Under the pieces are notes generated by a model. That model did not search any database and was not told the DNA's origin. It saw only the letters and a list, made by a program, of their open reading frames with translations. 64,000 nucleotides of DNA from Streptosporangiaceae bacterium (GTDB lineage Bacteria; Actinomycetota; Actinomycetes; Streptosporangiales; Streptosporangiaceae). The stretch lies in contig DASXMW010000029.1 in assembly GCA_036495425.1 (NCBI GenBank), forward strand, positions 802-64,801. The letters run 5' to 3'. Made by a program: the position numbers and the translations under genes. Shown in pieces: positions 5,679 to 45,630 of this stretch; position 1 is the stretch's first letter, and each line of letters starts with the position of its first letter.

Positions 5679-7136
5679 ATGTCACGGCGCTGGTGGGCTC
5701 TGGTGGCGGTCAGCCTGGCCACCCTGATGAGTTACCTGGACAACAACGTGGTGAACGTGGCCTTGCCGACCATCCAGCGCAGCCTGAACCTGTCGGTGTC
5801 GGGGCTGGAGTGGGTGGTCAGCAGCTACCTGCTGGTGTTCGCCGGGCTGCTGCTGGCCGGAGGGCGGCTGGCTGACCACTACGGCCGGCGCCGGCTGTTC
5901 CTGATCGGCCTGGGCGTCTTCACCGCGGCGTCGCTGGCCGCCGGGCTGGCCGGCAGCGGGGCGGTGCTGATCGCCAGCCGGGCCGTGTCCGGTCTCGGCG
6001 CCGCCCTGATGGTGCCGACCACGCTGGCCATCATCCTGGCCACCTTCGACGATGTGCGCGAGCGGTCCCGGGCCGTCGCCATCTGGACCGCCATCGGCGC
6101 CCTGGGCCTGGCCTTCGGCCCGCTGGTCGGCGGCTTCATCAGCCAGCACCTGCACTGGGGCTGGATCTTCTTCATCAACGTCCCGATCGGCGTGATCACG
6201 GCGGCCATCGCGCTGCCCGCCATGGACGAGTCCCGCGGCCGCGCGGCGGGCCAGACCCGGCGCCTTGACGTGCCCGGCCTCGTCGTCTCGGCCGTGATGC
6301 TGTTCTCGCTGGTGTACGCGCTGATCGAGGGCCAGGACCGGGGCTGGACGTCACCGCTCATCCTGGGGGCCTTCGTCCTGTCGGCGCTGGCCGCGGCGGC
6401 CTTCGTGCTGGTGGAGAGCCGGGCCGAGCACCCGATGGTGGCCCTGTCGCTGTTCCGCAACCGGGTGTTCAGCGGCGGTAGCACCACCATGATGCTGTGG
6501 GCCTTCGGGGTGTTCGGGATCTACTTCTTCACCGCGCTCTACCTGCAGGACATCCTGGGCTTCTCGCCCACCAAGGCCGGGCTCGCGTTCGTGCCCATGG
6601 CCCTGGCCATGGCCGCGACCTCCTTCCTGGCCGGCCCGGTCACGGCCCGGATCGGCACGCACCGCACGGTGGCCCTGGGCATGCTGCTGATGGCGGGCGG
6701 CCTGGTCCTGTTCACCATGCTGGGCCAGCACGCGACCTTCGCCGGCATGATGCCGGGGTTCCTGGTCTTCGGCGCGGGCGGCGGCCTGATGAACATGCCG
6801 CTGACCAACGCGATCCTGGGCGCCATGCCGCCCGAGCGGTCCGGGGTCGCCTCGGCCCTGCTGAACGCGTCGCGCGAGGTGGCCGGGTTGCTCGGGGTCA
6901 CCGTCATCGGCGCGGTGCTGCGGTCCCGCCAGAGCGCCGAACTGCGGGCTGGTACGCACCCGGCGGCCGCGTTCATCGACGGCTACCACGCCGGGCTGAT
7001 CCTGACCATCGCGCTGACCCTGGCCGGCGTGGTCGTCAGCTACCTGGCCCTGCGCCGGTACGCGACCCGGCCCGCGGCCCAGGATGAACTGGCCACCACT
7101 CCGGAAACCCCGGTCCCGGCGGGGGACAGCGCCTGA
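5679..7136 (+). CDS. MFS transporter, DHA2 (EmrB/QacA-like, about 14 TMS) drug-efflux type
   Basis: MSYLDNNVVNVALPTIQRSLN..., GRLADHYGRRRLF motif, multiple hydrophobic segments. Confidence 0.85.
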   Translation: MSRRWWALVAVSLATLMSYLDNNVVNVALPTIQRSLNLSVSGLEWVVSSYLLVFAGLLLAGGRLADHYGRRRLFLIGLGVFTAASLAAGLAGSGAVLIASRAVSGLGAALMVPTTLAIILATFDDVRERSRAVAIWTAIGALGLAFGPLVGGFISQHLHWGWIFFINVPIGVITAAIALPAMDESRGRAAGQTRRLDVPGLVVSAVMLFSLVYALIEGQDRGWTSPLILGAFVLSALAAAAFVLVESRAEHPMVALSLFRNRVFSGGSTTMMLWAFGVFGIYFFTALYLQDILGFSPTKAGLAFVPMALAMAATSFLAGPVTARIGTHRTVALGMLLMAGGLVLFTMLGQHATFAGMMPGFLVFGAGGGLMNMPLTNAILGAMPPERSGVASALLNASREVAGLLGVTVIGAVLRSRQSAELRAGTHPAAAFIDGYHAGLILTIALTLAGVVVSYLALRRYATRPAAQDELATTPETPVPAGDSA

Positions 7137-7170
7137 CTCTCCGTCAGGCGCGAGCGGCCGGCGGGTGGCG

Positions 7171-7932
7171 TCAGAAGCCACCCGCCGGCAGCGTGCTCAG
7201 GTCCACCTCGCTGGTCTCGCCGATGCCGTGCACCGCGGTCACGGTGGCCCAGCCCTCCCGGACCAGGGCCCAGTCGCTGTCGGCGGCGACGTTGCTCCCG
7301 AACTCGGCGAACGTGACCGGGATGGCGCCCCCGCGCAGCTCGCCCACGGTGACCTTGGCCGACCCGTAGTCGGCCAGCCGGGCCGCCCGCAGCCCGCGCA
7401 CCTGGTCCAGCGGCCGGTCCGGCACGTTCAGGTTGACCATCACCGCGGGGACGGCCCGGGGCAGGTACCAGTCCAGGGCCCGGGCCGACACCGCCTCGGC
7501 CGTGTCCCAGTGCACGGAGGCGTCCCGGGCCAGCGAGAAGGCCATGCCGGGCAGATCCGCCGAGGCCGCGGTGAGCGCGGCCCCGACCGTGCCCGAGTGC
7601 AGGATGGCCCGGCCCAGGTTCGGCCCCCGGTTGATGCCGGACAGCACGATGTCCGGCCGCCCGCCGAAGCCGCCGTGCACGGCCACGAACGCGATCATGG
7701 CCGGGGTGGCCCGCACCGCCAGCGCGGGCACGTCCTCCAGCCCGTCCAGCTTGCGTTCCTCGGCCAGCAGGTGGCCGCCGGACTCCAGCGCCGACATCAT
7801 GGCGCTGGTCCCGCTGCGTTCAGAATCGGGGGCGGCGACGGTCACGTCCAGCCCGGCGGCCACCGCCACCCGGGCCAGCAACCGCACCCCTGGACTGTCG
7901 ATCCCGTCATCGTTGGTGATCAGTGCGCGCAT
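7171..7932 (-). CDS. surE: 5'/3'-nucleotidase SurE
   Basis: MRALITNDDGIDSPGVRLL...SGINRGPNLG motifs. Confidence 0.85.
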   Translation of the reverse strand: MRALITNDDGIDSPGVRLLARVAVAAGLDVTVAAPDSERSGTSAMMSALESGGHLLAEERKLDGLEDVPALAVRATPAMIAFVAVHGGFGGRPDIVLSGINRGPNLGRAILHSGTVGAALTAASADLPGMAFSLARDASVHWDTAEAVSARALDWYLPRAVPAVMVNLNVPDRPLDQVRGLRAARLADYGSAKVTVGELRGGAIPVTFAEFGSNVAADSDWALVREGWATVTAVHGIGETSEVDLSTLPAGGF

Positions 7933-7934
7933 TA

Positions 7935-8254
7935 CGTCATATAAGCACTCGGCACCGACGGCAGCGGCCCCGGGCCCGGCTGGACCAGGCCGCCGCCGTC
8001 ACCCCGGCCCAGTGGCCGTCCGGGACCGCGGCGGCCGCGACTGGAAATCGCGGTCCCGGCCCAGGTCAGCAGCCGGGTGCTCCCCTCCGCAGCCCGGGCA
8101 GATGAGCCAGCACGTGGCCGCGGGACCACCCCGCCACCCGCGACGGCCCGCGCGCCTGGTCGCCGCACCGCCCGTCCAGTTCGGCCACCAGATCCGAGGT
8201 GGCCCCGGCCGGCCGCGCCAGTACCGGCCCGATGGGGCCCGTGGCCTGCGTCAC
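7935..8254 (-). pseudogene. Remnant of a mycothiol-dependent maleylpyruvate isomerase (MDMPI_N/DinB-like) family gene, frameshifted and truncated
   Basis: From GTG 8254 (AGAGGA RBS upstream): ...DLVAELDG...PSRVAGWSRGHVLAHL, then the expected continuation (ARAAEGSTRLLTWAGTA) appears in another frame; far too short for a full-length family member. Confidence 0.45.
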
Positions 8255-8317
8255 CGGGGGTTCCTCTTTTGCCGCAAACGCGAAACTCGCACCACAAAGG
8301 CACGGTAGCGTCACCGC

Positions 8318-9964
8318 GTGGATCGCGGGGACTCCGACGCTGGCCAGCGGCTGCTGCCCGGCCGATGGGCCTTGCCCGGCGGCCTGATCCTGGCCAGCTA
8401 CCTCACCGCCGAGCCCGCGGCCGCCGTCCAGTACCGGCTGATCGTCGACGTCCTGCTGGACGAGCAGGAGCGTTCGCTGGCCGGGGTGTCCCGGCCCGGC
8501 CTGGAGGTCCTGCTCCGGGACCGGCTCGACGCCCAGTTGAATGCCCAGTTGAATGGACCGCTGGAGGCACCGCTGGAGGCACGGCCCGACGGGCCGCTGG
8601 ACCGGCCGGCCGGCCGGTGGCTGGCCGCGCTGCCGCTGGACCGCCGGCTGGACCAGCTCGTGGCCTGGGGTGTGGCCGACCAGTGGCCGGGTCCCGGCGG
8701 GGTTTCGCACTACCAGCTCACCGAGCCCGCGGCCCGGCTGCACCGCGCCGTCCGCGAGCTGGCGCCCGGCCCCGGTGGCCCCGGAGCGGAGCCGGGAGGC
8801 TCGGTGGCGGCCAGCGTCGCGCCCCCGGTGCTGGCCGGTCACCTGGACCGCCTGGCTGCCGCGGTCCCGGGCCGGCCCGGCGACGCGGCCCAGGCCTGGT
8901 CGGTGGTACGGACCACGTTCGGGGCCATGGCCGAGGCCGCCGCGGCCTGGCAGGCCCGGCTGGCCGCCGCCCTGGCCGGCGCGGCCGAACCGGCCCGGGT
9001 GGCCGCCCTGCAGGACACCCTGCGCCGCTACGTGGACGTGTGGGGGACCGGCGTGGACCGGCACTCCGGCCCGATCGCCACCCACACGTCCGGGCTGCTG
9101 GCCGCGGGCCCGGCCGCCTGGCGGCCCGCCGCCCTGCACAGCCTGGGCGCCGCCGCCACCGAAGACCAGCTGTCCGCCCTGCTCGGCGACTACCAGGTCA
9201 CGCTGGCCGGGCTGCTGGCCTGGTTCGGCCCGGGTGACAACCGGGCCCGGCGGCTCCGGCGGCAGATGCGCGATGTGGTGGTGCCGCTGGTGCACGGCCG
9301 GCGGGCCCTGGCCGCCGTCCGGGGTCAGCTGTCCCAGCGGGCCGACCTGCTGGCCCTGGCCGGGGCGCTGGAGCGCGCGGCCACCGACGACGACGCCTGG
9401 TCGCTGTGGTGCACGGCCACCGGGCTGTTCGCCGCCCGCCACCTGCCCCACCCCAGCCCGCAGCCGCCAGGCCCGGCGGGCTCGGTGTCGTTCTGGGCCG
9501 CCGAGCCGGTGCCGCCGTCCCTGCTGGCCGCCGGGCCCGCGGTGACCGGGTCCGCTGCGGCCGGGCCCACCATGGCCGGCCTGGCCGCGGACGCCGCGGA
9601 CCGGGTGGCCCGGATGCCCGACCACTCGGCGGCCCGGGCCGCGGCCCGGGCCGCGGCGTCGGCCCGGCAGGCCGCCGCCGACCAGACCCGGCAGGCCATC
9701 CAGGCCCGGTCCGGGCTCCAGCTGTCCGGCTGGACCGGCCTGGACGCGGGCCAGCTTGACGTGCTGCTGTCGCTCCTGGCCGCGCTGGCCGGAGCCCGTC
9801 CCGGCCAGGACGGCAGCCGGACCGTGCGCACTCCGGACGGCCGCTGGACGGTCCGGGCCGAGCCCGCCCCGGACGGCGCGCCGCCCGCGGTCATCGGCAC
9901 CCCGGCCGGCCGGCTGGTCCACCCCGACCTGCGCCTGACCATCAACGCCGGAGCGGACCGGTGA
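8318..9964 (+). CDS. jetA: Wadjet type II JetA-like / EptA-like protein (TIGR02677, DUF2397-like)
   Basis: N-terminus ASYLTAEPAAAVQYRLIVDVLLDEQ resembles the family N-terminus; first gene of a three-gene coupled operon ending in the TIGR02680-like ATPase; GTGA overlap with next gene. Confidence 0.6.
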   Translation: MDRGDSDAGQRLLPGRWALPGGLILASYLTAEPAAAVQYRLIVDVLLDEQERSLAGVSRPGLEVLLRDRLDAQLNAQLNGPLEAPLEARPDGPLDRPAGRWLAALPLDRRLDQLVAWGVADQWPGPGGVSHYQLTEPAARLHRAVRELAPGPGGPGAEPGGSVAASVAPPVLAGHLDRLAAAVPGRPGDAAQAWSVVRTTFGAMAEAAAAWQARLAAALAGAAEPARVAALQDTLRRYVDVWGTGVDRHSGPIATHTSGLLAAGPAAWRPAALHSLGAAATEDQLSALLGDYQVTLAGLLAWFGPGDNRARRLRRQMRDVVVPLVHGRRALAAVRGQLSQRADLLALAGALERAATDDDAWSLWCTATGLFAARHLPHPSPQPPGPAGSVSFWAAEPVPPSLLAAGPAVTGSAAAGPTMAGLAADAADRVARMPDHSAARAAARAAASARQAAADQTRQAIQARSGLQLSGWTGLDAGQLDVLLSLLAALAGARPGQDGSRTVRTPDGRWTVRAEPAPDGAPPAVIGTPAGRLVHPDLRLTINAGADR

Positions 9965-11220
9965 CCACCCCCAGCGCGCCCGATCACGCCTCCAACGGGC
10001 CCGGCCAGACCCCCAGCGGGCCCGGTCAGACTCCCAGCGGGCCCGGCCACACCCCCACTCCCGCCTTTCCCACTGGTCCCATGGATCACATCAGCCCCGA
10101 CCGTGACGGGCAGCGGGCCTTCACCGGCCTGCTGGCCCGGCCGCTGGTCACCGCGGCGAGCGACCCCGCCCTGTACCGGGCCGTGACCCGGCACGCGGCC
10201 GCGGTCAGCCAGGCCGCCCGCACCCTCGGCTACCGGCTGGCCGCCACCGGCCAGGCCTTCCGGCTGGTCCGGGTACCGGTGGCGGGCACGGTCACCGCCC
10301 CGCCCCCGCCACCGGACCGTCCCGGCCGCCGGGTGCTGGCCCTGGCCTGCGTGCTGGCCGCGGCCTGCGACCAGCTCACCGGCCCGGTCACCCTGGCCGG
10401 GCTGGCCCGGGCGGTCCAGGAGCTGACCAGCGGCCCGGCCGCCACGGTGGCACCGTTCGACCCGGGCCTGCTGGCCCACGAGCGCCAGCTGGCCGAGGCG
10501 GCCGGGCTGCTGGCCCACTGGGGCGTGCTGCGCCCCCGCCCGCCGGCCGCCGGGCCCGGGCCGGCCGCGCCCGCCGAGTACGACATCGACCAGGCCGCGC
10601 TGGAGCTGCTGACCAGCCCGGACGTGCTGTCCCCGGCCCTGGCCCCAGCGGCCGCGGCGGGCGGCCCGGACCCGGCCGCCGACGACCTGCCGGGAGCCTC
10701 CCGGCCGGTGCGGGCGCTGCGCGCGCTGGTCGAGACCCCGGCCGTCATGTACGCCGAGCTGGCCGGGGACGACGCCGCCGCGCTGCGGGCCACCCGCGGC
10801 CTGCGCTCCAGCGAGGCCGCCCGCCTGACCGGAGGGCATGTGGAAGCCCGCGCCGAGGGACTCACCGTGATCATTGACGACGAACCGCCCAGCCCGGTGA
10901 CCAGCGACTGGCCCGGCGGCAGCAGCCCGGGCCAGGTCTCGCTGCTGCTGGCCGACGCGGCCGGGCGGGCCGGGGAACGCCAGCCCGACGGCACCGTCAC
11001 CCTCACCAGCGACCAGGCCGACGAGCAGGCCAGCGCGGTGCAGGCCGCCCACCAGCCTGAGCTGGCCGGGCCGTTGCGGGACGACCCGGCCGCGGTCCGG
11101 GCCGCGGCCGAGCAGCAGCTGGCCGCGCTGGGCCTGCTCCGGATACGCCCAGACGGCGGCTGGGTGCTCTCCCCGGCCGCGGGCCGCTACCGGATCGCGG
11201 GCACGGGCGGTCAGTCGTGA
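9961..11220 (+). CDS. jetB: Wadjet type II JetB-like / EptB-like protein (TIGR02678, DUF2398-like)
   Basis: FTGLLARPLVTAASDPALYRAVTRHAAAVSQAARTLGYRL... pattern; GTGA overlaps with both neighbours. Confidence 0.55.
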   Translation: MTTPSAPDHASNGPGQTPSGPGQTPSGPGHTPTPAFPTGPMDHISPDRDGQRAFTGLLARPLVTAASDPALYRAVTRHAAAVSQAARTLGYRLAATGQAFRLVRVPVAGTVTAPPPPPDRPGRRVLALACVLAAACDQLTGPVTLAGLARAVQELTSGPAATVAPFDPGLLAHERQLAEAAGLLAHWGVLRPRPPAAGPGPAAPAEYDIDQAALELLTSPDVLSPALAPAAAAGGPDPAADDLPGASRPVRALRALVETPAVMYAELAGDDAAALRATRGLRSSEAARLTGGHVEARAEGLTVIIDDEPPSPVTSDWPGGSSPGQVSLLLADAAGRAGERQPDGTVTLTSDQADEQASAVQAAHQPELAGPLRDDPAAVRAAAEQQLAALGLLRIRPDGGWVLSPAAGRYRIAGTGGQS

Positions 11221-14200
11221 CCGCGCCGTCGCCGGAGGGCCAGGACCTGCCGCCGGCGGCCCAGGACCTGACGACCTGGCCGGACTCGGTACGGGACGGC
11301 GGCCTGCCCGAGCCATCCCGGTCCGGCCGCTGGCAGCTGCTGCGGGCCGGCGTGGTCAACCTGTGGGAGTTCGACGTCGCCGAGTACTGGCTGGCCGGCG
11401 GCCGGGCCCAGTTCGTGGGGCAGAACCAGTCCGGCAAGTCCACCCTGATGGCCCTCACCTCGCTGATCCTGCTGGCCGGGGATCTGGACCGCGAGCTGGT
11501 GGACACCTTCGGCCAGCAGCACAGGACCTTCCGCTACTACGTGGAGCCCACCGGCGACCCCCAGGACCGCCGGGACAGCGGCCCGGCCACCGCCCGCGGC
11601 TGGGCCTGGCTGGAGTTCGCCAGGCACGGGGACGGCGGCCCCCGCTACTTCACCTGCCTGCTGTACGCGCAGGCCCGGCGGGGCGTGGCCGGCCTGGACA
11701 CCACCTGGGCGGTGTGCGACGGGACGGCCCGGGTGCGGGCCGGCCTGGACCTGCACCAGGCCGCCGCGGTCCGCCCGCCCGCCGCCCTGGCCTCGGTGCC
11801 CGGCTTCCGGGCCACCCCGGACGGGGACACCTACCGGGCCTGGGTGGCCGGTGAGCTGTTCGGGTTCACCGGGCCGGACCGGCTGGAGGCGGTGGTCCGC
11901 ATGCTCTCGGTGCTGCGCACCCCGCACCTGGGCCAGCGGCTGGACCCCGGCTTCTTCACGGCCCAGCTGCGGACCGCGCTGCCCGCGGTCGCGCCCGGCC
12001 AGATCGCCGGGCTGGCCGAGGGCTGGGACGCCCTGGACGCGCTGGCCCGGGACCGCGACCAGGCCCGGACCGCCCGCGACGCCGTGGCCGCCTACCTCTC
12101 CGGGGCCTGGGCCCCGTGGGCCGACGCAACCCTGCGCTGGCGGGCCGATGACCTGCTGGCCAGCGTGACCCGGCTCGACGAGGCGGTCGGCGCCGCGGCC
12201 GGGGCCGCGGCCGCCCTGGCCGCGGCCCGGGACCGGGTGGCGGGTACGGCCAGGCCGCTGCAGACCGCCCGGGACACCCGGGACCGGGTCGAGCAGGGCT
12301 ACGAGGACCTGCTCACCTCCCCGGCCTACGCCGGCACCGGGGGCACCGCGGCCCGGGTCGAGCAGCTCCAGCAGGCCGCGGCCCGGTCCCGCCAGGCCGC
12401 GGCGGCCGCCACCGGCGAGGCCAGCCAGGCCCAGGCCGTCCTGGACCGCCGGTCCGCCGAGCAGAAGACGGCCAGCGAGGCCACCGCCCGCGCCGCGGAC
12501 CAGGTGGCGGCGGCGGTGTGCGCGGTCGCGGCGGCCGCGGAGCCGGCCGGGCTGCCCGCCGCCACCGCCGGCTGGGCCGCCCGCGGTGACCTCGGGCGGC
12601 TGGACGCCGCCCTGCGCGAGCAGGGCGAGCAGGTGGCGGCGGCCCGGCCGCTGCTGGCCGCGGCGGCGCTGGCCCGGCAGCAGGAGGAGACCGCCGCCCG
12701 CTGGGCCGTGCAGGCCTCGGCCGAGCGCGCCCGCTGGGTGACCCGGGCCGGTCAGGCCGCCGACGCGGTGGAAGCGGCCCTGCAGGGACTGTCCGACGAG
12801 CTGGAGGGCTGGGCGGCCAAGCTGGGCGAGGAGGCTCCGGCGCCGGCCCGGCGGGTGGGCTGGATCGCCTCAGCCGTCGAGCAGTCGGCCCAGGCCGAGC
12901 CGCGCCCGGTGCTGGCCGGGCTGCTGCGGGATTCCTGGCTGACCAAGCTGACCACCTCCCTGCGCGAGCGCGCGGCCGTGCTCGAGCACGAGGCCGAGCA
13001 CCGGCAGCGGGAGGCCCACGAGCGGGACGAGCAGGCCGCCCGGCAGCTGCTGGAGTCCGAGCCGCAGCCGGCCCCGGCCAGCCGCTGGGTCCGACGGGAA
13101 CGGCCCGCGGCCGGGCCGGACGGCACCCCGCTGTGGCGGCTGCTGGAACCGCGCGGCAGCCTGTCACCCGAGGTGCTGGCCCACATCGAGGCGGCCCTGG
13201 ACGCCGCCGGGCTGCTCGAGGCCTGGGTCACCCCGGACGGGGCCTGGCTGCCCGGCCGGGACGGCCGCGACGCGGTGCTCACCGCCGCGACCGGCTGGCC
13301 CGACACCACCGCGTCGTTCAGCACGCTGGCCTCGGTGCTGCAGCCCGCCCCCGACGCCGGGCCGCTGGCCAGCCGGGTCGGGGCGCTGCTGCATGTCATC
13401 GGCTATCTGGCCGAGGAGAACCGGGCGCCGCTCAGCTACGACTACGGGGTCACCGCCGACGGGCGCTGGCACACCCCGTACACCGCCGGGCAGGCCGGGC
13501 CGCCCGAGCACGGCGCCGAGCTGATCGGCGTGGCCACCCGCCGCGCCGCCCGCGACCGCCGCGCCCAGGATCTGCGCGACCAGGCCTCGGTCCTGCGCGA
13601 CGAGGCGGCCGGCCTGCGCAAGACCGCGGCCGGGCTGCGCGAGCGGCTGGCCGAGCTGGAGACGGCCGCGGCCCGGGCCCCGGGCGACGCCGGCCTGGTC
13701 GGGGCGGTGCTGGCCCGGCAGGCCGCGGACGACGGGCTGCGCCGGGCCGAGGCCGTCCGCGACCGGGCCGAGGAGGACCTGGCCCGGGCCCGGGCCAGCG
13801 CCCAGGACGCGCACACCGCGCTGGGCCGGGGCGTGCTGGCCGGCCCGCAGGCCGCGGCCGGTCCCGGTAGCCCGGCCACCGACCTGGACGAGCGGGCCGG
13901 GGCCCTGCGGACGGCCGAGGCCGCGACGGCCGGGCTGGCGCTGGCCCGGGCGGGACAGCACGCGGCTCAGCGGGCCGAGGACCAGGCCCGCGTCCTGTAC
14001 ACCGAGACCGCCGAGCTGGCCGCGGCCGCGGCCGAGCGGGCCAGCCGGGCCCTCCGGCACGCCGACCAGGACCAGGACGTGGCCGACAACGCCGAGGAGG
14101 CCCTGGACGAGTCCGGCCGCGACCTGCGCCAGGCCGCCCGGGAACAGCGGCGGCGCCGGGATGAGCTGGCCGCCGCCGTGGACGCGCTGCAGGCCGAGCA

Positions 14201-15536
14201 CGGCCGCGGGCTGGCCGCCGCGGCCGCCGCCGAGGTCCGGCTGGACACCGCCGAGCAGCGGCGCGAGCAGGCCGAGCAGGCTCGCGACGACGCGCTGGCC
14301 GCCTGGTGGATCCCGGTCGACGCGGGCCTGGCCGCGGCCCGGGAACTGCCGGTGGCGGCCGGCCGCACGCTGGCCCAGGCCGAGGCCCAGGCCGTGGCGG
14401 CCCGGTCACTGATCGCGCCGCCCGGCTGGCCGGAGCCGGGCCAGGCCGACTCCGCCGCCCGCGCCGCCCTGGCCGCCCGGGCCTGGGCCGTGGTGGTGGG
14501 GCGCCCGCTGGCCGAGCTGCGCACGGTGCTGGAGAGTTCCGGCGGCCGCGGGGTCGTGCTGCGGGACCCGGCCGAACCGGGTCAGCTGCCCGAGGTCGCG
14601 ATCCTGGTCGACGGGGCCGGCCTGGCCAGCGCGCCGGCCCGGGCCGTGGCCCAGCTCGACCAGCAGGTCACCACGCTGACCGAGCGGCACGACCAGATCA
14701 TGCACCAGGTCCTGGCCGACCTGCTGTCGAGCACGTTCGTCGAGCACCTGCAGGACCGCCAGGGCGCCGTCACCGAGCTGATCAGCGGGGTCAACCGGGT
14801 GCTGGCCCAGCACCCGACCGGGGCCAGCGCCACCACGCTGCGGCTGCGCCGCCAGGCCGCGCCCGGTCACGAGACCGCGTTCGCGGTGCTGACCGCGTTG
14901 GAGCCGGGGGCCTCCGCGGCCGGGGACCGGGATCGGCCCGAGTCCCCGCGGGACCAGGTGCGCACGTTCCTGGAGCAGCAGATCCGGGCCGCCCAGGACC
15001 AGGCCCGGTCCGGCCCGGCCGACTGGCGGGAGCACCTGTCGGTGCTGCTGGACTACCGGCGCTGGTTCGACGTGGTCACCGACTACCGGGTGGGGGAGGG
15101 GACCTGGCGCCCGTTCACCGAGGAGGTGCACGCCAAGGACTCCGGCGGCGGCAAGGCCGTGACCCTGCTCCAGCCGATGCTGGCCGCGCTGGCCGCGCTG
15201 TACGCCGAGTCCGGCTCGGCGCCGCGCCCGCTGTGGCTGGACGAGGCGTTCACCGGTGTCGATGACACCAACCGGGCCACCATGCTGGGACTGCTGGTCA
15301 CCTTCGACCTGGACTTCGTGCTGGCCGGCCCGGCCACCCTGGTCACCACGGCCCAGGTGCCGTCGGCCGCGATCTGGTTCGTCAGCCGGGCCCCCGCCCC
15401 CGATCCCGGGGTCGACCTGTCGCTGATGCTCTGGGCCGGCGGCCAGCCCGTCTCCGCCGAGGCGCCCGAGGCGCCCGGGACCGAGCCGCCGGTGCCCGAG
15501 CCGCCGGCGGCGCCGCTGCCGCGGATGATGCCCTAA
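11217..15536 (+). CDS. jetC: Wadjet type II JetC-like / EptC-like SMC-family ATPase (TIGR02680-like), 1439 aa
   Basis: N-terminal Walker A GQNQSGKST, very long Ala/Arg/Glu-rich coiled-coil centre, C-terminal DSGGGKA signature-like motif and Walker B PLWLDEAF...D. Confidence 0.8.
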   Translation: MTAPSPEGQDLPPAAQDLTTWPDSVRDGGLPEPSRSGRWQLLRAGVVNLWEFDVAEYWLAGGRAQFVGQNQSGKSTLMALTSLILLAGDLDRELVDTFGQQHRTFRYYVEPTGDPQDRRDSGPATARGWAWLEFARHGDGGPRYFTCLLYAQARRGVAGLDTTWAVCDGTARVRAGLDLHQAAAVRPPAALASVPGFRATPDGDTYRAWVAGELFGFTGPDRLEAVVRMLSVLRTPHLGQRLDPGFFTAQLRTALPAVAPGQIAGLAEGWDALDALARDRDQARTARDAVAAYLSGAWAPWADATLRWRADDLLASVTRLDEAVGAAAGAAAALAAARDRVAGTARPLQTARDTRDRVEQGYEDLLTSPAYAGTGGTAARVEQLQQAAARSRQAAAAATGEASQAQAVLDRRSAEQKTASEATARAADQVAAAVCAVAAAAEPAGLPAATAGWAARGDLGRLDAALREQGEQVAAARPLLAAAALARQQEETAARWAVQASAERARWVTRAGQAADAVEAALQGLSDELEGWAAKLGEEAPAPARRVGWIASAVEQSAQAEPRPVLAGLLRDSWLTKLTTSLRERAAVLEHEAEHRQREAHERDEQAARQLLESEPQPAPASRWVRRERPAAGPDGTPLWRLLEPRGSLSPEVLAHIEAALDAAGLLEAWVTPDGAWLPGRDGRDAVLTAATGWPDTTASFSTLASVLQPAPDAGPLASRVGALLHVIGYLAEENRAPLSYDYGVTADGRWHTPYTAGQAGPPEHGAELIGVATRRAARDRRAQDLRDQASVLRDEAAGLRKTAAGLRERLAELETAAARAPGDAGLVGAVLARQAADDGLRRAEAVRDRAEEDLARARASAQDAHTALGRGVLAGPQAAAGPGSPATDLDERAGALRTAEAATAGLALARAGQHAAQRAEDQARVLYTETAELAAAAAERASRALRHADQDQDVADNAEEALDESGRDLRQAAREQRRRRDELAAAVDALQAEHGRGLAAAAAAEVRLDTAEQRREQAEQARDDALAAWWIPVDAGLAAARELPVAAGRTLAQAEAQAVAARSLIAPPGWPEPGQADSAARAALAARAWAVVVGRPLAELRTVLESSGGRGVVLRDPAEPGQLPEVAILVDGAGLASAPARAVAQLDQQVTTLTERHDQIMHQVLADLLSSTFVEHLQDRQGAVTELISGVNRVLAQHPTGASATTLRLRRQAAPGHETAFAVLTALEPGASAAGDRDRPESPRDQVRTFLEQQIRAAQDQARSGPADWREHLSVLLDYRRWFDVVTDYRVGEGTWRPFTEEVHAKDSGGGKAVTLLQPMLAALAALYAESGSAPRPLWLDEAFTGVDDTNRATMLGLLVTFDLDFVLAGPATLVTTAQVPSAAIWFVSRAPAPDPGVDLSLMLWAGGQPVSAEAPEAPGTEPPVPEPPAAPLPRMMP

Positions 15537-15855
15537 GGCCTGTTTCATAAGTTGTGGGCAAGCCATTCGTTGATGGCGGCGATGTGGACGATGGCCTGGT
15601 AGCGGACGGCTAGCTTGTCGTATCGGGTGGCGAGGGCCCGGTGGCGTTTGAGCCGGTTGATGCTGCGCTCGCCGTGTGCCGCCGCTTATAGATTGCGCGG
15701 TCGAAGGCTGGTGGCCGGCCGCCCGCGTGGCCGCGGTTCTTCCGGTACTGGATGCGGTCGGCTTGCTCGGGGATCGTGCAGGCGATGCGGCGTTTGCGCA
15801 GTTAGGCGCGGTTGGCGCGGGAGCCGTAGGCCTTGTCGCCCCAGGATCCAGCCGG
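15537..15855 (-). mobile_element. IS5-family transposase remnant (C-terminal part only, with in-frame stop and a frameshift)
   Basis: Minus-strand translation: GDKAYGSRANRA*LRKRRIACTIPEQADRIQYRKNRGHAGGRPPAFDRAIYKRRHTA, frame change, then ERSINRLKRHRALATRYDKLAVRYQAIVHIAAINEWLAHNL*; classic IS5 DDE C-terminus. Confidence 0.75.
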
Positions 15856-16052
15856 GAAGGGTGGTGGTCATAAGGGGTTCCCCTTCCGGGTGGCCGCGGG
15901 ACATTTCACCCCTCATCACGATCGCGAACGGCGGCTGGCGGCACCAGGGTGAGACCCTGGTTCCTCCCGGGCCAGCGTCCCGCTGGATGCGGCGGTGCAC
16001 CCCGCAGCGGCATGCTGAACCCGGACCGGAACGGGCAGCAGGGAGTGAGCTG

Positions 16053-16274
16053 ATGGACGGTGCCCCTGTGACCTTGACGGTGGTGTCCAGCCGTGCCGAG
16101 GCGGATCTGGTTGTGGCCCTGCTCCGCAGCGGCGGCCTGCGCGCCGCGATCTCGGCCGACGACGCCGATGGCCAGGACCCCCAGCTGCGGCTGGAAGGGG
16201 TCCGCATCCTGGTCGCCTCCGAAGAGGAGGCCGCCGCCCGCCAGCTCTTGGCCGACGCCGAGGCCGTCGGGTGA
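16053..16274 (+). CDS. DUF2007-like small protein (putative signal-transducing beta-alpha-beta fold)
   Basis: 73 aa, ATG 16053 preceded by GGGAG; VTLTVVSSRAEADLVVALLRSGGLRAAI...VRILVASEEEAAARQLL. Confidence 0.5.
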   Translation: MDGAPVTLTVVSSRAEADLVVALLRSGGLRAAISADDADGQDPQLRLEGVRILVASEEEAAARQLLADAEAVG

Positions 16275-16352
16275 ACTCATCCTCGCCTTTCGGGTGAGAA
16301 GAGGTGAGGATGTCGAACGCAGGGAGGCGCCGGCGATGGACGGACGGGACAC

Positions 16353-16964
16353 GTGCTGAGCGGGCAGGTCCGCCCGGAGGAAATCCCCAGCGCGGAAAGC
16401 GACGCCGACCTCATCGAACTGTCGCTGCGGGAGCCAGCCCGGTTCGGGGTCATCTACGACCGGCACGCCGCCGAGATTCTGCGGTACGCACATGCACGGC
16501 TGGGCCCGTCGTCGGCCGAGGAGGTGATGGCCGAGACGTTTCTGGCCGCGTTCCGCCGTCGGGACAAGTACGACTGCAGCCGTAGCGATGCCCGGCCCTG
16601 GCTGTACGGCATCGCGACGCGCCAGATCAGCAAGCACCGGCGGACGGAGGGCCGCCACCAGCGCGCCCTGGCCCGGCTGCATGCCGAGGCCGCGAGCGAG
16701 GATTTCGCCGACCGGTCGGACGACCGGGTGACGGCTCAGGGCCTGCGCCCCCGCATCGCCACGGTACTGGCCGGGATGTCGCAGCGGGATCGCGACCTGC
16801 TGCTGCTCATCGCCTGGGCCGGGCTCAGCTATGACGAGACCGCCCGGGCGCTCGGCATTCCGATCGGCACCGTCCGATCACGGCTGAACCACATCCGGAC
16901 CCACACCCGCGAGGCTCTCGGCGGCGCCAACCCGGCCCGGGCCACCGAGGGCCACCAGCCATGA
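16353..16964 (+). CDS. ECF-type RNA polymerase sigma-70 family factor
   Basis: Region 2 (FGVIYDRHAAEILRYAHARLG...AEEVMAETFLAAF...ARPWLYGIATRQI) and region 4 (MSQRDRDLLLLIAWAGLSYDETARALGIPIGTVRSRL). Confidence 0.85.
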   Translation: MLSGQVRPEEIPSAESDADLIELSLREPARFGVIYDRHAAEILRYAHARLGPSSAEEVMAETFLAAFRRRDKYDCSRSDARPWLYGIATRQISKHRRTEGRHQRALARLHAEAASEDFADRSDDRVTAQGLRPRIATVLAGMSQRDRDLLLLIAWAGLSYDETARALGIPIGTVRSRLNHIRTHTREALGGANPARATEGHQP

Positions 16965-17782
16965 ATCAGCAAGGAGAATCAGCCATGGACCAGGTAGCAC
17001 TGTTTTCCGACGTCCGGCCGGCGCCTCCGGCGGACGATGATGTCGCCACCGTCTGCGACCGGACGCGCGATCGGGTCGCGGCCGCGTTTCAGGAAACCCC
17101 GCCCGGTCGTCGCCGTCGGCGGCGGTTCGCCTTCGGTCTGGCCGGTGGCGGTGTCCTCGCCGCCGGGGCCGCGACCGCGGCGGTCACCCTGCTCGCTGGT
17201 AACGCGGCCCCGCCCGGCGGTTCGCTGCGGTCGTTTGTCACCGCCGCCTACACGGTGCGCCCGGGTCAGGACGGCACGATCACCGTCACGATCAAGCAAC
17301 TACAGGACCCGGCGGGCCTGCAACGCGCGCTGGCCGCCGACGGCGTTCCCGCCCTCGTCCGGTACGTCCCGGACAGGTTCTTGAGCGGCACCTACCACGG
17401 CACCACCTACAGCGGCGTAAGCCCGGTGTGCCAGTACTTCAATCTTCCGCGGGCGGCCAGCGCGGAGTCCAAAGCGGTCGGCTTGGTCACTGGCGGGGGT
17501 GGGTTGTTCTGGATTCGCCCCAGTGCCATGCCCAAGGGTACGGTGGTCTTCATTCAGGACTCACTCAGCAAGCAGGGCAACATCGCCGGCATTGACCTGC
17601 TGACCAGCAGCAAGTTGCCTCCGTGCGTGCCAGTCAAGCCGCCTACACCGCAGCAGATCATCTCCCCGCAGGCTGGCCAGCCGACCGTCTCGCCGAAGGG
17701 CCATCAGCTGAAGAGCGTCCCGCCGGGCAGATACTCTGATCACGAATCACCGTTGCCGTCCTCGCCGGGCTCCTTGTCCTGA
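16961..17782 (+). CDS. Single-pass membrane protein coupled to the ECF sigma factor (candidate anti-sigma/partner)
   Basis: ATGA overlap with sigma gene; RRRRRRFAFGLAGGGVLAAGAATAAVTLLAG TM segment; lower GC than surroundings. Confidence 0.5.
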   Translation: MNQQGESAMDQVALFSDVRPAPPADDDVATVCDRTRDRVAAAFQETPPGRRRRRRFAFGLAGGGVLAAGAATAAVTLLAGNAAPPGGSLRSFVTAAYTVRPGQDGTITVTIKQLQDPAGLQRALAADGVPALVRYVPDRFLSGTYHGTTYSGVSPVCQYFNLPRAASAESKAVGLVTGGGGLFWIRPSAMPKGTVVFIQDSLSKQGNIAGIDLLTSSKLPPCVPVKPPTPQQIISPQAGQPTVSPKGHQLKSVPPGRYSDHESPLPSSPGSLS

Positions 17783-17855
17783 GCCTCACGGGCGCGAAGG
17801 GAAGACCCGGACCGTCTCGACGCCGAGCTTCGTGGCCGAGGCGGTTAGGCGCCGG

Positions 17856-18515
17856 TCAGAACAGGCGGAGCGAGTCGTCCTCGGTGCCGCGCATGGCCTC
17901 GTAGTCGAGGACCACGCAGCGGATGCCGCGGTCGGTGGCCAGCACCCGGGCCTGGGGCTTGATCTCCTGGGCGGCGAACACGCCCTGCACCGGGGCCAGC
18001 AGCGGGTCCCGGTTGAGCAGGTCCAGGTACCGGGTGAGCTGCTCGACGCCGTCGATCTCGCCTCGGCGCTTGATCTCCACCGCCACGCTGCCGCCGGCGT
18101 GGTCCTTGCACATCAGGTCGACCGGGCCGATCGGGGTGGGGAACTCCCGGCGGACCAGCCGCCAGCCGTCGCCCAGCAGGTTCACCTGAGCGGCCAGCAG
18201 TTCCTGCAGGTGTGACTCGACCCCGTCCTTGGTCAGGCCCGGGTCGACGCCGAGCTCGACCGAGGTGTCGCTGACCACTTCCTCCAGCGTGATGGCCAGG
18301 GTCTCGCCCGCTTTGTTGGTCACCGTCCACCGGCCGGGCTGCTCGGCCAGCCTGCACGGGGGCGACATCCAGTTCAGCGGCTTGTAGGAGCCGCCGTCGG
18401 AATGGACCAGGACCGAGCCATCCGCCTTGACGATGAGCAGGCGGAGCGCTGACGGGAGGTGGGCGGTGAGCCGGCCGACGTAGTCGACGCTGCACCGCGC
18501 GATGACGAGCCGCAC
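17856..18515 (-). CDS. nucS: Endonuclease NucS (mismatch-specific)
   Basis: [21 protein letters not shown]...; start set at GTG 18515, 219 aa. Confidence 0.9.
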
Positions 18516-18570
18516 GGAAGGCCACTGTAGCGGGCTCGCCCAGTGCGGACACGAGCATAAAGTAACCGGC

Positions 18571-45417: not shown

Positions 45418-45501
45418 GCGGGCGTGGCGAAATAGGTATACGCGCCAGGTTTAGGTCCTGGTGGTGGCGACACCGTGGGGGTTCGAGTCCCCCCGCCCGC
45501 A
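45418..45501 (+). tRNA. tRNA-Leu (anticodon UAG), class II with long variable arm
   Basis: Hand-folded: acceptor GCGGGCG/CGCCCGC, D arm GCG-AAATAGGTATA-CGC, anticodon arm CCAGG-TTTAGGT-CCTGG, variable arm GGTG-GCGA-CACC, T arm GGGGG-TTCGAGT-CCCCC; CCA not encoded. Confidence 0.9.
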
Positions 45502-45630
45502 CCTCACCCGATGCTGATCACCCAGTGCTGACGGCGACCAGCCCGCTCAGGATCACGTCGATCTCCCAGCCCCGCGGCCTGGCCATCACCGCCCTGGCCA
45601 CCGCCACCCTGCTCGCCGTGGCCGCCACCC

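What the first reader, a model, noticed from the sequence alone, without database searches (positions are those of the whole stretch)
8318..15536. Wadjet type II / EptABCD-like SMC operon that stops after jetC, with no JetD nuclease gene
Three genes (548, 419 and 1439 aa) are joined by GTGA start/stop overlaps. The third has a Walker A motif (GQNQSGKST), a very long coiled coil, and a C-terminal signature-like DSGGGKA plus Walker B LWLDEAF.

This order and these sizes fit the TIGR02677 / TIGR02678 / TIGR02680 triad. That triad normally comes with a fourth gene (TIGR02679, DUF2399, Toprim-type) and corresponds to type II Wadjet JetABCD and the M. smegmatis EptABCD plasmid-restriction system.

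Here the jetC stop (15534-15536) is followed immediately by an IS5 remnant, and no Toprim-like ORF lies downstream. In characterised Wadjet systems JetD makes the DNA cut.

The locus is therefore one of three things:
- a disabled defence system
- a JetABC complex that uses a nuclease encoded elsewhere
- a complex repurposed as an MksBEF-like condensin
Basis: partly seen in the sequence, partly recalled or inferred. Interest (0 to 1): 0.75.

Follow-up and report, generated by a model that had tools for sequence, protein, structure and literature searches.

The report
Nuclease-less type II Wadjet operon, conserved
This actinobacterial locus keeps the three DNA-motor genes of a type II Wadjet anti-plasmid system but lacks the DNA-cutting gene; related species carry the same three-gene form with no insertion-sequence (IS) scar, so it is an inherited, still-selected variant rather than a recent IS accident.

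Summary
Window 8318-15536 encodes JetA2, JetB2 and JetC2 (548, 419 and 1439 aa) joined by GTGA overlaps. No JetD is detectable anywhere in the 64 kb. A decayed IS5-family fragment starts right after the jetC stop.

The implied link between the IS and the missing nuclease does not hold. Seven related species-level genomes (Streptosporangiaceae-like MAGs) carry jetABC at the same site, between surE and nucS, without jetD. In four of them jetC abuts or overlaps nucS with no IS.

Three sister-lineage loci carry jetABCD-nucS. jetD was therefore deleted in a common ancestor, and the IS5/ECF-sigma cassette arrived later.

Since the loss, jetABC has stayed intact:
- no frameshifts or stops in five genomes
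- 17-18 indels per genome pair, all in frame
- invariant ATPase motifs
- dN/dS 0.33-0.47

That dN/dS is well below 1 but two to three times higher than in JetD-encoding relatives.

Best reading: a nuclease-free SMC-kleisin-KITE motor kept under relaxed selection, possibly MksBEF-like. A trans-encoded nuclease and slow decay are not excluded. JetD loss recurs in Micromonosporaceae.

This is a new variant of a known kind, of moderate interest.

The parts
7171..7932 (-). surE (5'/3'-nucleotidase). Divergent upstream neighbour and conserved left boundary of the locus in the JetD-less clade.
   Evidence: Pfam SurE 3.9e-43. GC3 is 0.96 on the minus strand, and the + strand ORF 7084-7944 is a shadow ORF with dN/dS about 1.3. 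Syntenic in L001-L006.
7933..8317 (+). surE-jetA intergenic region, the presumed promoter region of the jetABC operon.
   Evidence: Read directly. No sigma-70 consensus match was found. Poorly conserved between relatives. Function is inferred only.
8318..9964 (+). jetA (type II Wadjet kleisin, DUF2397), 548 aa.
   Evidence: Pfam DUF2397 2e-69 and PADLOC JetA2 1.4e-139. Residues 321-343 and 401-403 differ from residues that are invariant in all JetD-encoding relatives.
9961..11220 (+). jetB (type II Wadjet tandem-KITE subunit, DUF2398), 419 aa. GTGA overlap with jetA.
   Evidence: Pfam DUF2398 4e-61 and PADLOC JetB2 6.3e-106. Overlap confirmed.
11217..15536 (+). jetC (SMC-like ATPase), 1439 aa. 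GTGA overlap with jetB. Walker A at residues 68-76, signature DSGGGKA at 1308-1314, Walker B LWLDEAF at 1339-1345.
   Evidence: PADLOC JetC2 3e-178, TIGR02680 4.5e-103 and PDB 9QE0/9QE1 nvJetC 6.8e-26. Motifs are invariant in 33 loci.
15537..15860 (-). Decayed IS5-family transposase fragment (C-terminal ~100 codons with an internal stop and a frameshift) plus the IS end, abutting the jetC stop. The coding remnant maps to 15843-15545; the 15860 edge is approximate and the sequence beyond 15843 is unassigned.
   Evidence: Translation and coordinates. Weak DDE_Tnp_1_2 match at 3.5e-5. Absent at this junction in L002, L005, L018 and L026.
15537..17852 (.). Lineage-specific 2.3-kb insertion between jetC and nucS. 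It holds the IS5 remnant, a DUF2007-like ORF (16044-16274), an ECF sigma factor (16353-16964) and a putative anti-sigma (16961-17782). It occupies the place where jetD sits in the sister lineages.
   Evidence: blastn synteny shows it missing in all relatives. Sigma70_r2/r4 and TIGR02937 matches. DUF2007 at 1.4e-4.
17856..18530 (-). nucS (EndoMS mismatch endonuclease). Convergent with jetC and the conserved right boundary of the locus in both the JetD-less clade and the jetABCD sister loci.
   Evidence: Pfam NucS_N and NucS_C at 1e-27 and 2.5e-41. Synteny.

Best explanation
Shown: this is a type II Wadjet (JetABCD/EptABCD-type) locus whose nuclease gene jetD was removed by a clean deletion in an ancestor of a Streptosporangiaceae-like clade. 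Sister lineages still have jetABCD followed by convergent nucS. In the clade, jetC abuts nucS. The IS5 remnant and the ECF-sigma cassette in this window were inserted later at that junction.

Shown: since the loss, jetABC has been inherited vertically at a fixed chromosomal site in at least eight species-level genomes. In five of them the reading frames are intact; L006 has one frame break in jetC (see evidence against). The jetA/jetB and jetB/jetC overlaps were verified in the window only. ATPase motifs are invariant, and dN/dS is clearly below 1 but relaxed.

Inferred: the operon still makes an ATP-driven SMC (JetC), kleisin (JetA) and tandem-KITE (JetB) DNA motor. Without JetD this motor cannot cleave circular DNA.

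Inferred: its retained role is therefore nuclease-independent. The most likely role is DNA loop extrusion on the chromosome or on replicons, as an accessory MksBEF-like condensin or as cleavage-free interference with plasmids. Selection on this role is weak.
For: Gene identity.

No JetD in the window or in the clade loci, by tblastn and by HMM with positive controls.

Synteny and junctions without an IS in L002, L005, L018 and L026.

Sister loci with jetD (DUF3323+DUF2399), and nucS directly behind jetD in L038, L042 and L043. The 4-bp overlap of jetD with the jetC stop is seen in L038, L007, L010, L039, L042 and L043.

The JetD-less clade is monophyletic, with L038 as sister.

Selection after the loss (within-clade pairs only):
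- JetABC dN/dS 0.33-0.47, bootstrap CI 0.29-0.52. A wrong-frame control gives about 1.3.
- 17-18 indel events per pair, all in frame, with no stops. If indels were neutral and one third were in frame, the chance of this is about (1/3)^18.

Walker A, signature, Walker B and D-loop are invariant.

GC3 of 0.94-0.97 equals that of the flanking genes, consistent with long residence.

An independent JetD-less pair (Winogradskya L008/L024) has dN/dS 0.12, as low as JetD-encoding systems.

Literature:
- Plasmid cleavage by a type II system needs both JetABC and JetD, and JetD from another Wadjet type cannot substitute.
- Loss of the nuclease is proposed to turn a Wadjet system into a chromosome-segregation module, with P. 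aeruginosa MksBEF as the proposed example.
Against: Constraint is relaxed. dN/dS is 2-3 times that of JetD-encoding relatives at similar dS (0.15-0.17). The relaxation is uniform and includes the ATPase heads (0.12-0.35 against 0.02-0.14).

The clade has lost 15-20% of the JetA positions that are invariant in all JetD-encoding relatives. Its sister lineages lost 3-9%.

A housekeeping condensin would be expected to be more constrained. JetABC sits at the upper end of the range for flanking genes (0.10-0.58).

Other lineages show that JetD loss can precede decay: L027 and L033 have truncated jetC, and L028 has jetC cut by an IS110.

L006 has a frame break in jetC. This may be a nanopore error.

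No expression or functional data exist. The rest of the genome could not be searched for a trans-encoded JetD or for Smc-ScpAB.
Confidence: 0.55

Rival explanations
1. JetABC still works as a defence sensor but uses a nuclease encoded elsewhere. This could be a trans-encoded JetD or another effector. The system would then be split rather than nuclease-free.
For: Purifying selection and invariant ATPase motifs are equally compatible with this reading. The Winogradskya JetD-less operons are as constrained as complete systems (dN/dS 0.12), which fits an unchanged function. Only 64 kb of this genome and about 24 kb of each relative could be searched.
Against: In every complete system examined here, jetD follows jetC directly. 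A 4-bp overlap with the jetC stop was seen in L038, L007, L010, L039, L042 and L043.

The five closest JetD homologues examined in a 5.8-billion-protein collection all sit in cis behind jetC. None is an orphan.

JetD activation needs specific protein contacts, and JetD from another Wadjet type does not substitute.

No common nuclease gene replaces jetD at the junction, either in this clade or in JetD-less Micromonosporaceae.

nucS adjacency is ancestral, is also found next to jetD, and is convergent. It is therefore not a replacement.

JetA has lost residues that are invariant in JetD-encoding relatives.
Confidence: 0.2
2. The operon is a functionless relic decaying slowly after loss of its effector. 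It looks intact only because too little time has passed.
For: dN/dS is raised 2-3 fold in all three genes and all domains. There is an excess loss of otherwise invariant residues. Decay after JetD loss is seen in L027 and L033, and an IS interrupts jetC in L028 and L034. L006 has a possible frameshift.
Against: Within-clade divergence (dS 0.2-0.4, 17-18 indels per pair) is ample for frameshifts to appear. None is seen in five genomes, and all indels are in frame.

dN/dS confidence intervals exclude 1 by a wide margin, while the wrong-frame control gives about 1.3.

Catalytic motifs are invariant.

The operon is retained in at least eight species-level lineages, while the neighbouring junction turned over repeatedly.
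Confidence: 0.2
3. jetD was destroyed recently in this genome by the IS5 insertion seen at 15.5 kb. This is the reading suggested by the IS scar.
For: The IS5 remnant begins 1-4 bp after the jetC stop.
Against: Relatives without any IS have the same jetC-nucS junction, and none has jetD. The JetC C-terminal tail (...PLPRMMP*) is shared with the IS-free L018. No JetD remnant was detected by HMM between jetC and nucS.
Confidence: 0.03

Closest known systems
Type II Wadjet (JetABCD-II; EptABCD of Mycolicibacterium smegmatis; nvJET-II of Neobacillus vireti, PDB 9QE0/9QE1)
   Same: The same three protein families (DUF2397 kleisin, DUF2398 tandem KITE, TIGR02680-type SMC ATPase). The same gene order and translational coupling. 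JetC aligns to nvJetC through the Walker A, signature and Walker B motifs.
   Different: [quoted passage not shown] The locus sits at a fixed, syntenic, housekeeping-like site rather than in a variable context. Constraint on all three subunits is relaxed.
MksBEF (nuclease-free Muk-like condensin, e.g. Pseudomonas aeruginosa; mycobacterial MksB operon)
   Same: A three-gene SMC/kleisin/KITE operon without a nuclease gene. It is thought to derive from a Wadjet system by loss of JetD. This is the functional analogy proposed here.
   Different: This locus matches the type II Wadjet families. Apart from one weak JetC1 match (3.2e-05), no match to other Wadjet-type or Mks families was reported. No chromosome-organisation function has been shown here. 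The relaxed dN/dS argues against an important housekeeping role.
MksBEFG / type I Wadjet of Corynebacterium glutamicum
   Same: An actinobacterial SMC-based plasmid-defence complex with an SMC, kleisin and KITE core.
   Different: That system keeps its nuclease MksG, which is its executing part (title of PMC10123090, listed), and it belongs to type I.

Membership tests
Type II Wadjet (JetABCD-II / EptABCD) | JetA2 kleisin of the DUF2397 / TIGR02677 family | tested here: met
   Pfam PF09660 at 2e-69 (235 bits against a gathering score of 28.5). PADLOC JetA2 at 1.4e-139. TIGR02677 at 9e-25, which is below the equivalog cut-off.
Type II Wadjet (JetABCD-II / EptABCD) | JetB2 tandem-KITE subunit of the DUF2398 / TIGR02678 family | tested here: met
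   Pfam PF09661 at 4e-61. PADLOC JetB2 at 6.3e-106 over positions 8-374 of the 384-position model. The four-WHD fold itself was not modelled. There is no sequence-level PDB hit.
Type II Wadjet (JetABCD-II / EptABCD) | JetC2 SMC-like ATPase (TIGR02680) with Walker A, signature and Walker B motifs and a long coiled coil | tested here: met
   PADLOC JetC2 at 3e-178. TIGR02680 at 4.5e-103 over positions 1-1338 of the 1356-position model, below the cut-off. PDB nvJetC at 6.8e-26. Motifs are invariant.
Type II Wadjet (JetABCD-II / EptABCD) | JetD2 nuclease (DUF3323 + DUF2399 Toprim, TIGR02679) encoded directly after jetC | tested here: not met
   No hit in the 64-kb window by tblastn (E<1) or by a JetD HMM (best E 0.74). 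Controls score 6e-148 and 9e-143. The rest of the genome could not be searched.
Type II Wadjet (JetABCD-II / EptABCD) | Restriction of small circular plasmids by ATP-dependent cleavage | not testable with these tools
   This needs transformation or cleavage assays. The literature shows that both JetABC and JetD are required.
MksBEF-type nuclease-free condensin | SMC + kleisin + KITE operon without a nuclease gene, stably inherited | tested here: met
   The three-gene form is present at the same site in eight informative genomes. The clade is monophyletic.
MksBEF-type nuclease-free condensin | Sequence membership in the MksB/MksE/MksF families | tested here: not met
   JetA and JetB match only the type II Wadjet families (DUF2397/DUF2398, JetA2/B2). 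JetC matches the JetC2 models plus one weak JetC1 model (3.2e-05). No Mks/Muk-type family was reported.
MksBEF-type nuclease-free condensin | A role in chromosome organisation or segregation | not testable with these tools
   This needs Hi-C, localisation or deletion phenotypes.

The most novel reading that the evidence does not exclude
This clade may capture an independent, type II-derived domestication of a Wadjet motor. After a clean deletion of jetD, the JetABC loop extruder was locked into the chromosome next to nucS and kept for a nuclease-free role. That would make it a natural 'type II MksBEF' and the intermediate postulated for the origin of MksBEF and MukBEF from defence systems.

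The JetA segment 321-343 and 401-403 is invariant in all JetD-encoding relatives but altered here. It would then mark the now-dispensable JetD docking surface of type II systems, which has not yet been mapped.
Probability: 0.3. Interest if true: 0.7.

Novelty: new variant of a known kind. Interest (0 to 1): 0.5.

Why it matters
Researchers working on SMC complexes propose that MukBEF and MksBEF arose from Wadjet systems that lost their nuclease. The natural examples discussed in the papers read here are of other Wadjet types, old and highly diverged.

Here the whole series can be seen within one family:
- sister loci with jetABCD-nucS
- a clade with a clean jetD deletion and an intact, still-selected jetABC
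- other lineages where JetD loss is followed by jetC truncation or IS disruption

This gives a dated, comparative system for asking three questions:
- What does a Wadjet motor do without its nuclease?
- Which residues become dispensable? These are candidates for the JetD docking site.
- Is defence-to-condensin conversion real, or just slow decay?

There is also a practical point. To my knowledge (not tested here), rule-based defence-system finders require JetD, so they would either skip such loci or risk miscalling them as active Wadjet. Cultured JetD-less relatives make experiments possible: Winogradskya consettensis NBRC 14913, W. humida NBRC 14915 and Actinoplanes rectilineatus NRRL B-16090.

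Tried and rejected
- Exact-sequence look-up of the window's JetB in the public assembly index found nothing on record, so the source genome stays unidentified.
- PDB sequence searches with JetA and JetB gave no hits. Fold-level confirmation of the tandem KITE was not pursued, because it would have needed another whole-database search and would not bear on the main question.
- A search for inverted repeats or target-site duplications around the 15.5-17.9 kb insertion found only chance-level short matches. No composite transposon can be claimed.
- The promoter scan of the surE-jetA spacer found no sigma-70 consensus site. This is uninformative in an approximately 72% GC actinobacterium.
- nucS as a replacement nuclease was rejected. 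Its adjacency is ancestral, it also lies next to jetD in L038, L042 and L043, and it is convergent.
- A common substitute effector downstream of jetC in JetD-less loci was rejected. The neighbours are unrelated: Macro domain, PrsW protease, BTAD/NB-ARC regulator, DUF4037, DNA methylase, NmrA-like protein, Ser/Thr kinase.
- Higher G+C of the operon (79-81%) as a sign of recent transfer was rejected. GC3 equals that of the flanking genes, and the excess is at codon positions 1 and 2, which reflects amino-acid composition.
- Cluster-member look-up to tie JetD homologues to the clade's MAG assemblies returned no organism names for the key proteins.
- The Panas et al. 2014 EptABCD paper is not held in the library.
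- The ORF at 7084-7944 (+) was first taken as a gene. It is the shadow of surE on the other strand.


Full report
OBSERVATION

The three ORFs are exactly as described: 8318-9964, 9961-11220 and 11217-15536 on the + strand, giving 548, 419 and 1439 aa. GTGA start/stop overlaps lie at 9961-9964 and 11217-11220.

They match the type II Wadjet families:
- Pfam DUF2397 at 2e-69 and DUF2398 at 4e-61, far above the gathering scores, plus SbcC_Walker_B in the third protein.
- PADLOC JetA2 at 1.4e-139, JetB2 at 6.3e-106 and JetC2 at 3e-178.
- TIGR02677, TIGR02678 and TIGR02680 at 9e-25, 2e-22 and 4.5e-103. All three fall below NCBIfam's equivalog cut-offs, so these proteins are diverged members.
- JetC matches one solved structure, the JetC of the Neobacillus vireti type II Wadjet (9QE0/9QE1), at 6.8e-26. 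The alignment runs through Walker A, signature and Walker B.

The quoted motifs sit at JetC residues 68-76, 1308-1314 and 1339-1345.

NO JetD IN THE WINDOW

Four JetD proteins taken from related loci find nothing in the 64-kb window by tblastn, even at E<1. A profile HMM built from 114 JetD sequences and run against all six reading frames gives a best E of 0.74. The same search scores 6e-148 and 9e-143 on positive controls, and 5e-15 on a 100-aa JetD remnant in L033.

WHAT FOLLOWS jetC

Directly after the jetC stop, the minus strand encodes the C-terminal ~100 codons of an IS5-family DDE transposase (...RSINRLKRHRALATRYDKLAVRYQAIVHIAAINEWLAHNL*). It carries an internal stop and a frameshift, and runs from 15843 down to 15545.

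Further downstream lie:
- a DUF2007-like small ORF (16044-16274)
- an ECF sigma factor (16353-16964)
- a probable anti-sigma (16961-17782)
- convergent nucS (17856-18530, minus strand)

These are supported. Upstream, the real neighbour is surE on the minus strand (7171-7932). The + strand ORF 7084-7944 is its shadow.

RELATIVES

A scan of one genome per GTDB species with JetC returned 38 loci. The closest are Streptosporangiaceae-like MAGs (71-90% identical JetC; about 81-90% DNA identity across jetC), so they are different species from the window.

Synteny by blastn shows the arrangement TetR-MFS-surE-jetABC-...-nucS-DivIVA-like in L002 to L006. L018 and L026 show the jetC-nucS end of it.

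The junctions are decisive:
- In L018 the jetC stop and the nucS stop are about 25 bp apart.
- In L026 the two genes are separated by only a few tens of bases.
- In L002 and L005 the two genes overlap convergently.
- None of these four has an IS.
- L003, L004 and L006 carry other inserts at the same junction. L003 has an NmrA-like gene, L004 has a Ser/Thr kinase with a beta-propeller, and L006 has 0.8 kb.

None of these loci contains JetD. L001 ends inside jetC and is uninformative.

By contrast, L038 (JetC 57% identical) has a 394-aa DUF3323+DUF2399 gene that overlaps the jetC stop by 4 bp and is followed by convergent nucS. A search with that JetD found its closest homologues at 67-78% identity. 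All five examined sit in cis behind jetC. Two more of these loci, L042 and L043, from independent metagenomes, again show jetABCD followed by nucS.

A JetA+JetB neighbour-joining tree places the JetD-less Streptosporangiaceae-like loci as one clade. L038 is its sister and L030 branches next; both encode JetD.

The parsimonious history is therefore as follows. The ancestor had jetABCD-nucS. jetD was deleted once in the clade's ancestor. Different cargo was later inserted at the jetC/nucS junction, and in this window that cargo is the IS5 and ECF-sigma cassette.

IS THE REMAINING OPERON ALIVE?

All within-clade comparisons postdate the loss. The evidence for continued selection is:
- In five genomes each gene aligns to the window protein as a single in-frame match.
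- Pairs differ by 17-18 indel events across the three genes. All are in frame, and there are no stops.
- Concatenated JetABC dN/dS (Nei-Gojobori method) is 0.33-0.47, with bootstrap 95% intervals of 0.29-0.52. The wrong-frame surE shadow ORF gives about 1.3, and nucS plus the DivIVA-like gene give 0.10-0.16.
- Walker A, signature (DSGGGK), Walker B and D-loop are invariant in all 33 loci, with or without JetD.
- GC3 (0.94-0.97) equals that of the flanking genes. The operon's higher overall G+C reflects amino-acid composition, not recent import.

Constraint is nonetheless relaxed:
- JetD-encoding pairs at similar dS give 0.15-0.17 (interval 0.11-0.20).
- The relaxation affects every domain, including the ATPase heads (0.12-0.35 against 0.02-0.14).
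- Clade members have lost 15-20% of the JetA columns that are invariant in all 17 JetD-encoding relatives. L038 lost 9% and L030 lost 3%.
- These JetA losses cluster at residues 321-343 (I321V, R326H, G335R, H337Q, R340Q, E343D) and 401-403.
- JetABC lies at the upper end of the dN/dS range of neighbouring genes (0.10-0.58).

L006 has one frame break in jetC. It comes from a MAG that I believe, from outside knowledge, was assembled from nanopore reads, so the break may be a sequencing error.

THE WIDER FAMILY

JetD loss recurs in Micromonosporaceae:
- L008, L024 and L025 have lost it. In the two Winogradskya loci (L008, L024), JetABC dN/dS is 0.12, as low as in complete systems.
- L009, L015, L017 and L029 have also lost it.
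- L027 and L033 have lost it and also have a truncated jetC.
- In L028, a JetD-encoding locus, jetC is split by an IS110-family transposase. L034 has a similar ~1.4-kb gap in jetC that was not examined.

No common gene replaces jetD in any of these loci. The JetD-encoding pairs tested (Micromonospora L011/L035 and Promicromonospora L016/L032) shared no detectable flanking genes. The JetD-less clade studied here is firmly syntenic.

MECHANISM

Established knowledge from the papers read:
- Wadjet JetABC is a dimeric SMC loop extruder that senses small circular DNA.
- JetD, a Toprim nuclease, makes the cut.
- For the type II system of N. vireti, cleavage needs JetABC, JetD and ATP, and JetD of another type cannot substitute.
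- The docking site of JetD on type II JetABC is unknown.
- The authors of the papers read propose that losing the nuclease could lock a Wadjet system in as a chromosome-segregation module, with P. aeruginosa MksBEF as the probable example.
- M. smegmatis MksB is treated as a condensin that follows replication forks.

Inference for this locus: it still makes an ATP-driven JetABC motor that cannot cleave DNA on its own. Its retained role is nuclease-independent and weakly selected. That role could be accessory chromosome or replicon organisation, or cleavage-free interference with plasmids.

I give this 0.55. The rivals are a trans-encoded nuclease (0.2), slow decay (0.2) and recent IS-mediated loss (0.03).

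COMPARISON AND NOVELTY

By family the locus is a type II Wadjet core. It fails the defining JetD criterion, so it should not be filed as a complete Wadjet system. It resembles MksBEF in architecture only, not in sequence family.

Full-text searches found no description of JetD-less type II operons. That library is incomplete.

I rate it a new variant of a known kind, with interest about 0.5. It is not surprising in principle, since the idea of nuclease loss is already published. It is a clean, comparative and experimentally approachable natural case, and it yields a specific candidate surface on JetA for the unmapped type II JetD contact.

LIMITS
- Only 64 kb of this genome and about 24 kb of each relative were searched.
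- The dN/dS estimates use the Nei-Gojobori method in genomes with about 95% GC3, so absolute values are rough and only the contrasts are meaningful.
- The tree is neighbour-joining on two proteins.
- No expression or functional data exist.

Noticed in passing
window 15537-17852; L003 14290-16340; L004 14230-16780; L006 14176-15003: The gap between convergent jetC and nucS is an insertion hot spot. Each lineage carries different cargo there. The window has an IS5 remnant, a DUF2007-like ORF, an ECF sigma and an anti-sigma. L003 has an NmrA-like NAD-binding gene. L004 has a Ser/Thr kinase with a beta-propeller. L006 has 0.8 kb of unknown sequence. L002, L005, L018 and L026 carry no inserted gene or IS there.
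   Followed up: partly
L002 ~14212-14260; L005 ~14185-14233: In two relatives the jetC reading frame runs about 45 bp into the 3' end of nucS on the opposite strand. The genes overlap convergently, so the JetC tail there is antisense nucS sequence.
   Followed up: partly
window JetA residues 321-343 and 401-403 (about nt 9278-9346 and 9518-9526): A cluster of residues is invariant in all 17 JetD-encoding relatives but substituted or deleted throughout the JetD-less clade (I321V, R326H, G335R, H337Q, R340Q, E343D; RLR 401-403 lost). This is a candidate for the unmapped JetD contact or another function that is no longer needed. JetD-less Micromonosporaceae keep these residues.
   Followed up: partly
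L028 11213-12613 (and a similar ~1.4-kb gap in the L034 jetC): In Plantactinospora, jetC of a JetD-encoding system is interrupted near residue 417 by an IS110-family transposase (DEDD_Tnp_IS110 + Transposase_20). This is a different route to inactivation within the same family.
   Followed up: partly
L033 14014-14664; L027 and L033 jetC: Virgisporangium L033 keeps only a ~100-aa JetD remnant (HMM 5e-15) and a jetC that matches only residues 1-772. Krasilnikovia L027 jetC matches only residues 1-833. These are decaying versions of the system.
   Followed up: partly
L008 14583-15203 and the L024 equivalent: In the two Winogradskya genomes, whose JetD-less jetABC is strongly constrained (dN/dS 0.12), a Macro-domain protein gene lies about 160 bp downstream of jetC on the same strand. 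A link to jetABC is unknown.
   Followed up: no
L017 (Salinispora mooreana) jetC 10001-14158: JetA and JetB of L017 are close to those of L029 (dN about 0.11-0.12), but pairwise jetC dN is about 0.9-1.0 against every other locus. This is either an alignment artefact of my script or a mosaic, swapped jetC.
   Followed up: no
window 7084-7944 (+) and 7171-7932 (-): The long + strand ORF upstream of jetA is not a gene. GC3 and dN/dS (about 1.3) show that the coding strand is the minus one, which encodes SurE. Many long antisense ORFs across jetABC are likewise artefacts of the high G+C.
   Followed up: yes
window 45418-45503: A single tRNA-Leu (anticodon TAG) is the only Rfam or ARAGORN hit in the 64 kb.
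   Followed up: no
L011 vs L035, L016 vs L032: Related genomes that carry complete jetABCD share the jet genes but no detectable flanking genes within +/-10 kb. That fits a variable or mobile context and contrasts with the fixed synteny of the JetD-less clade.
   Followed up: partly
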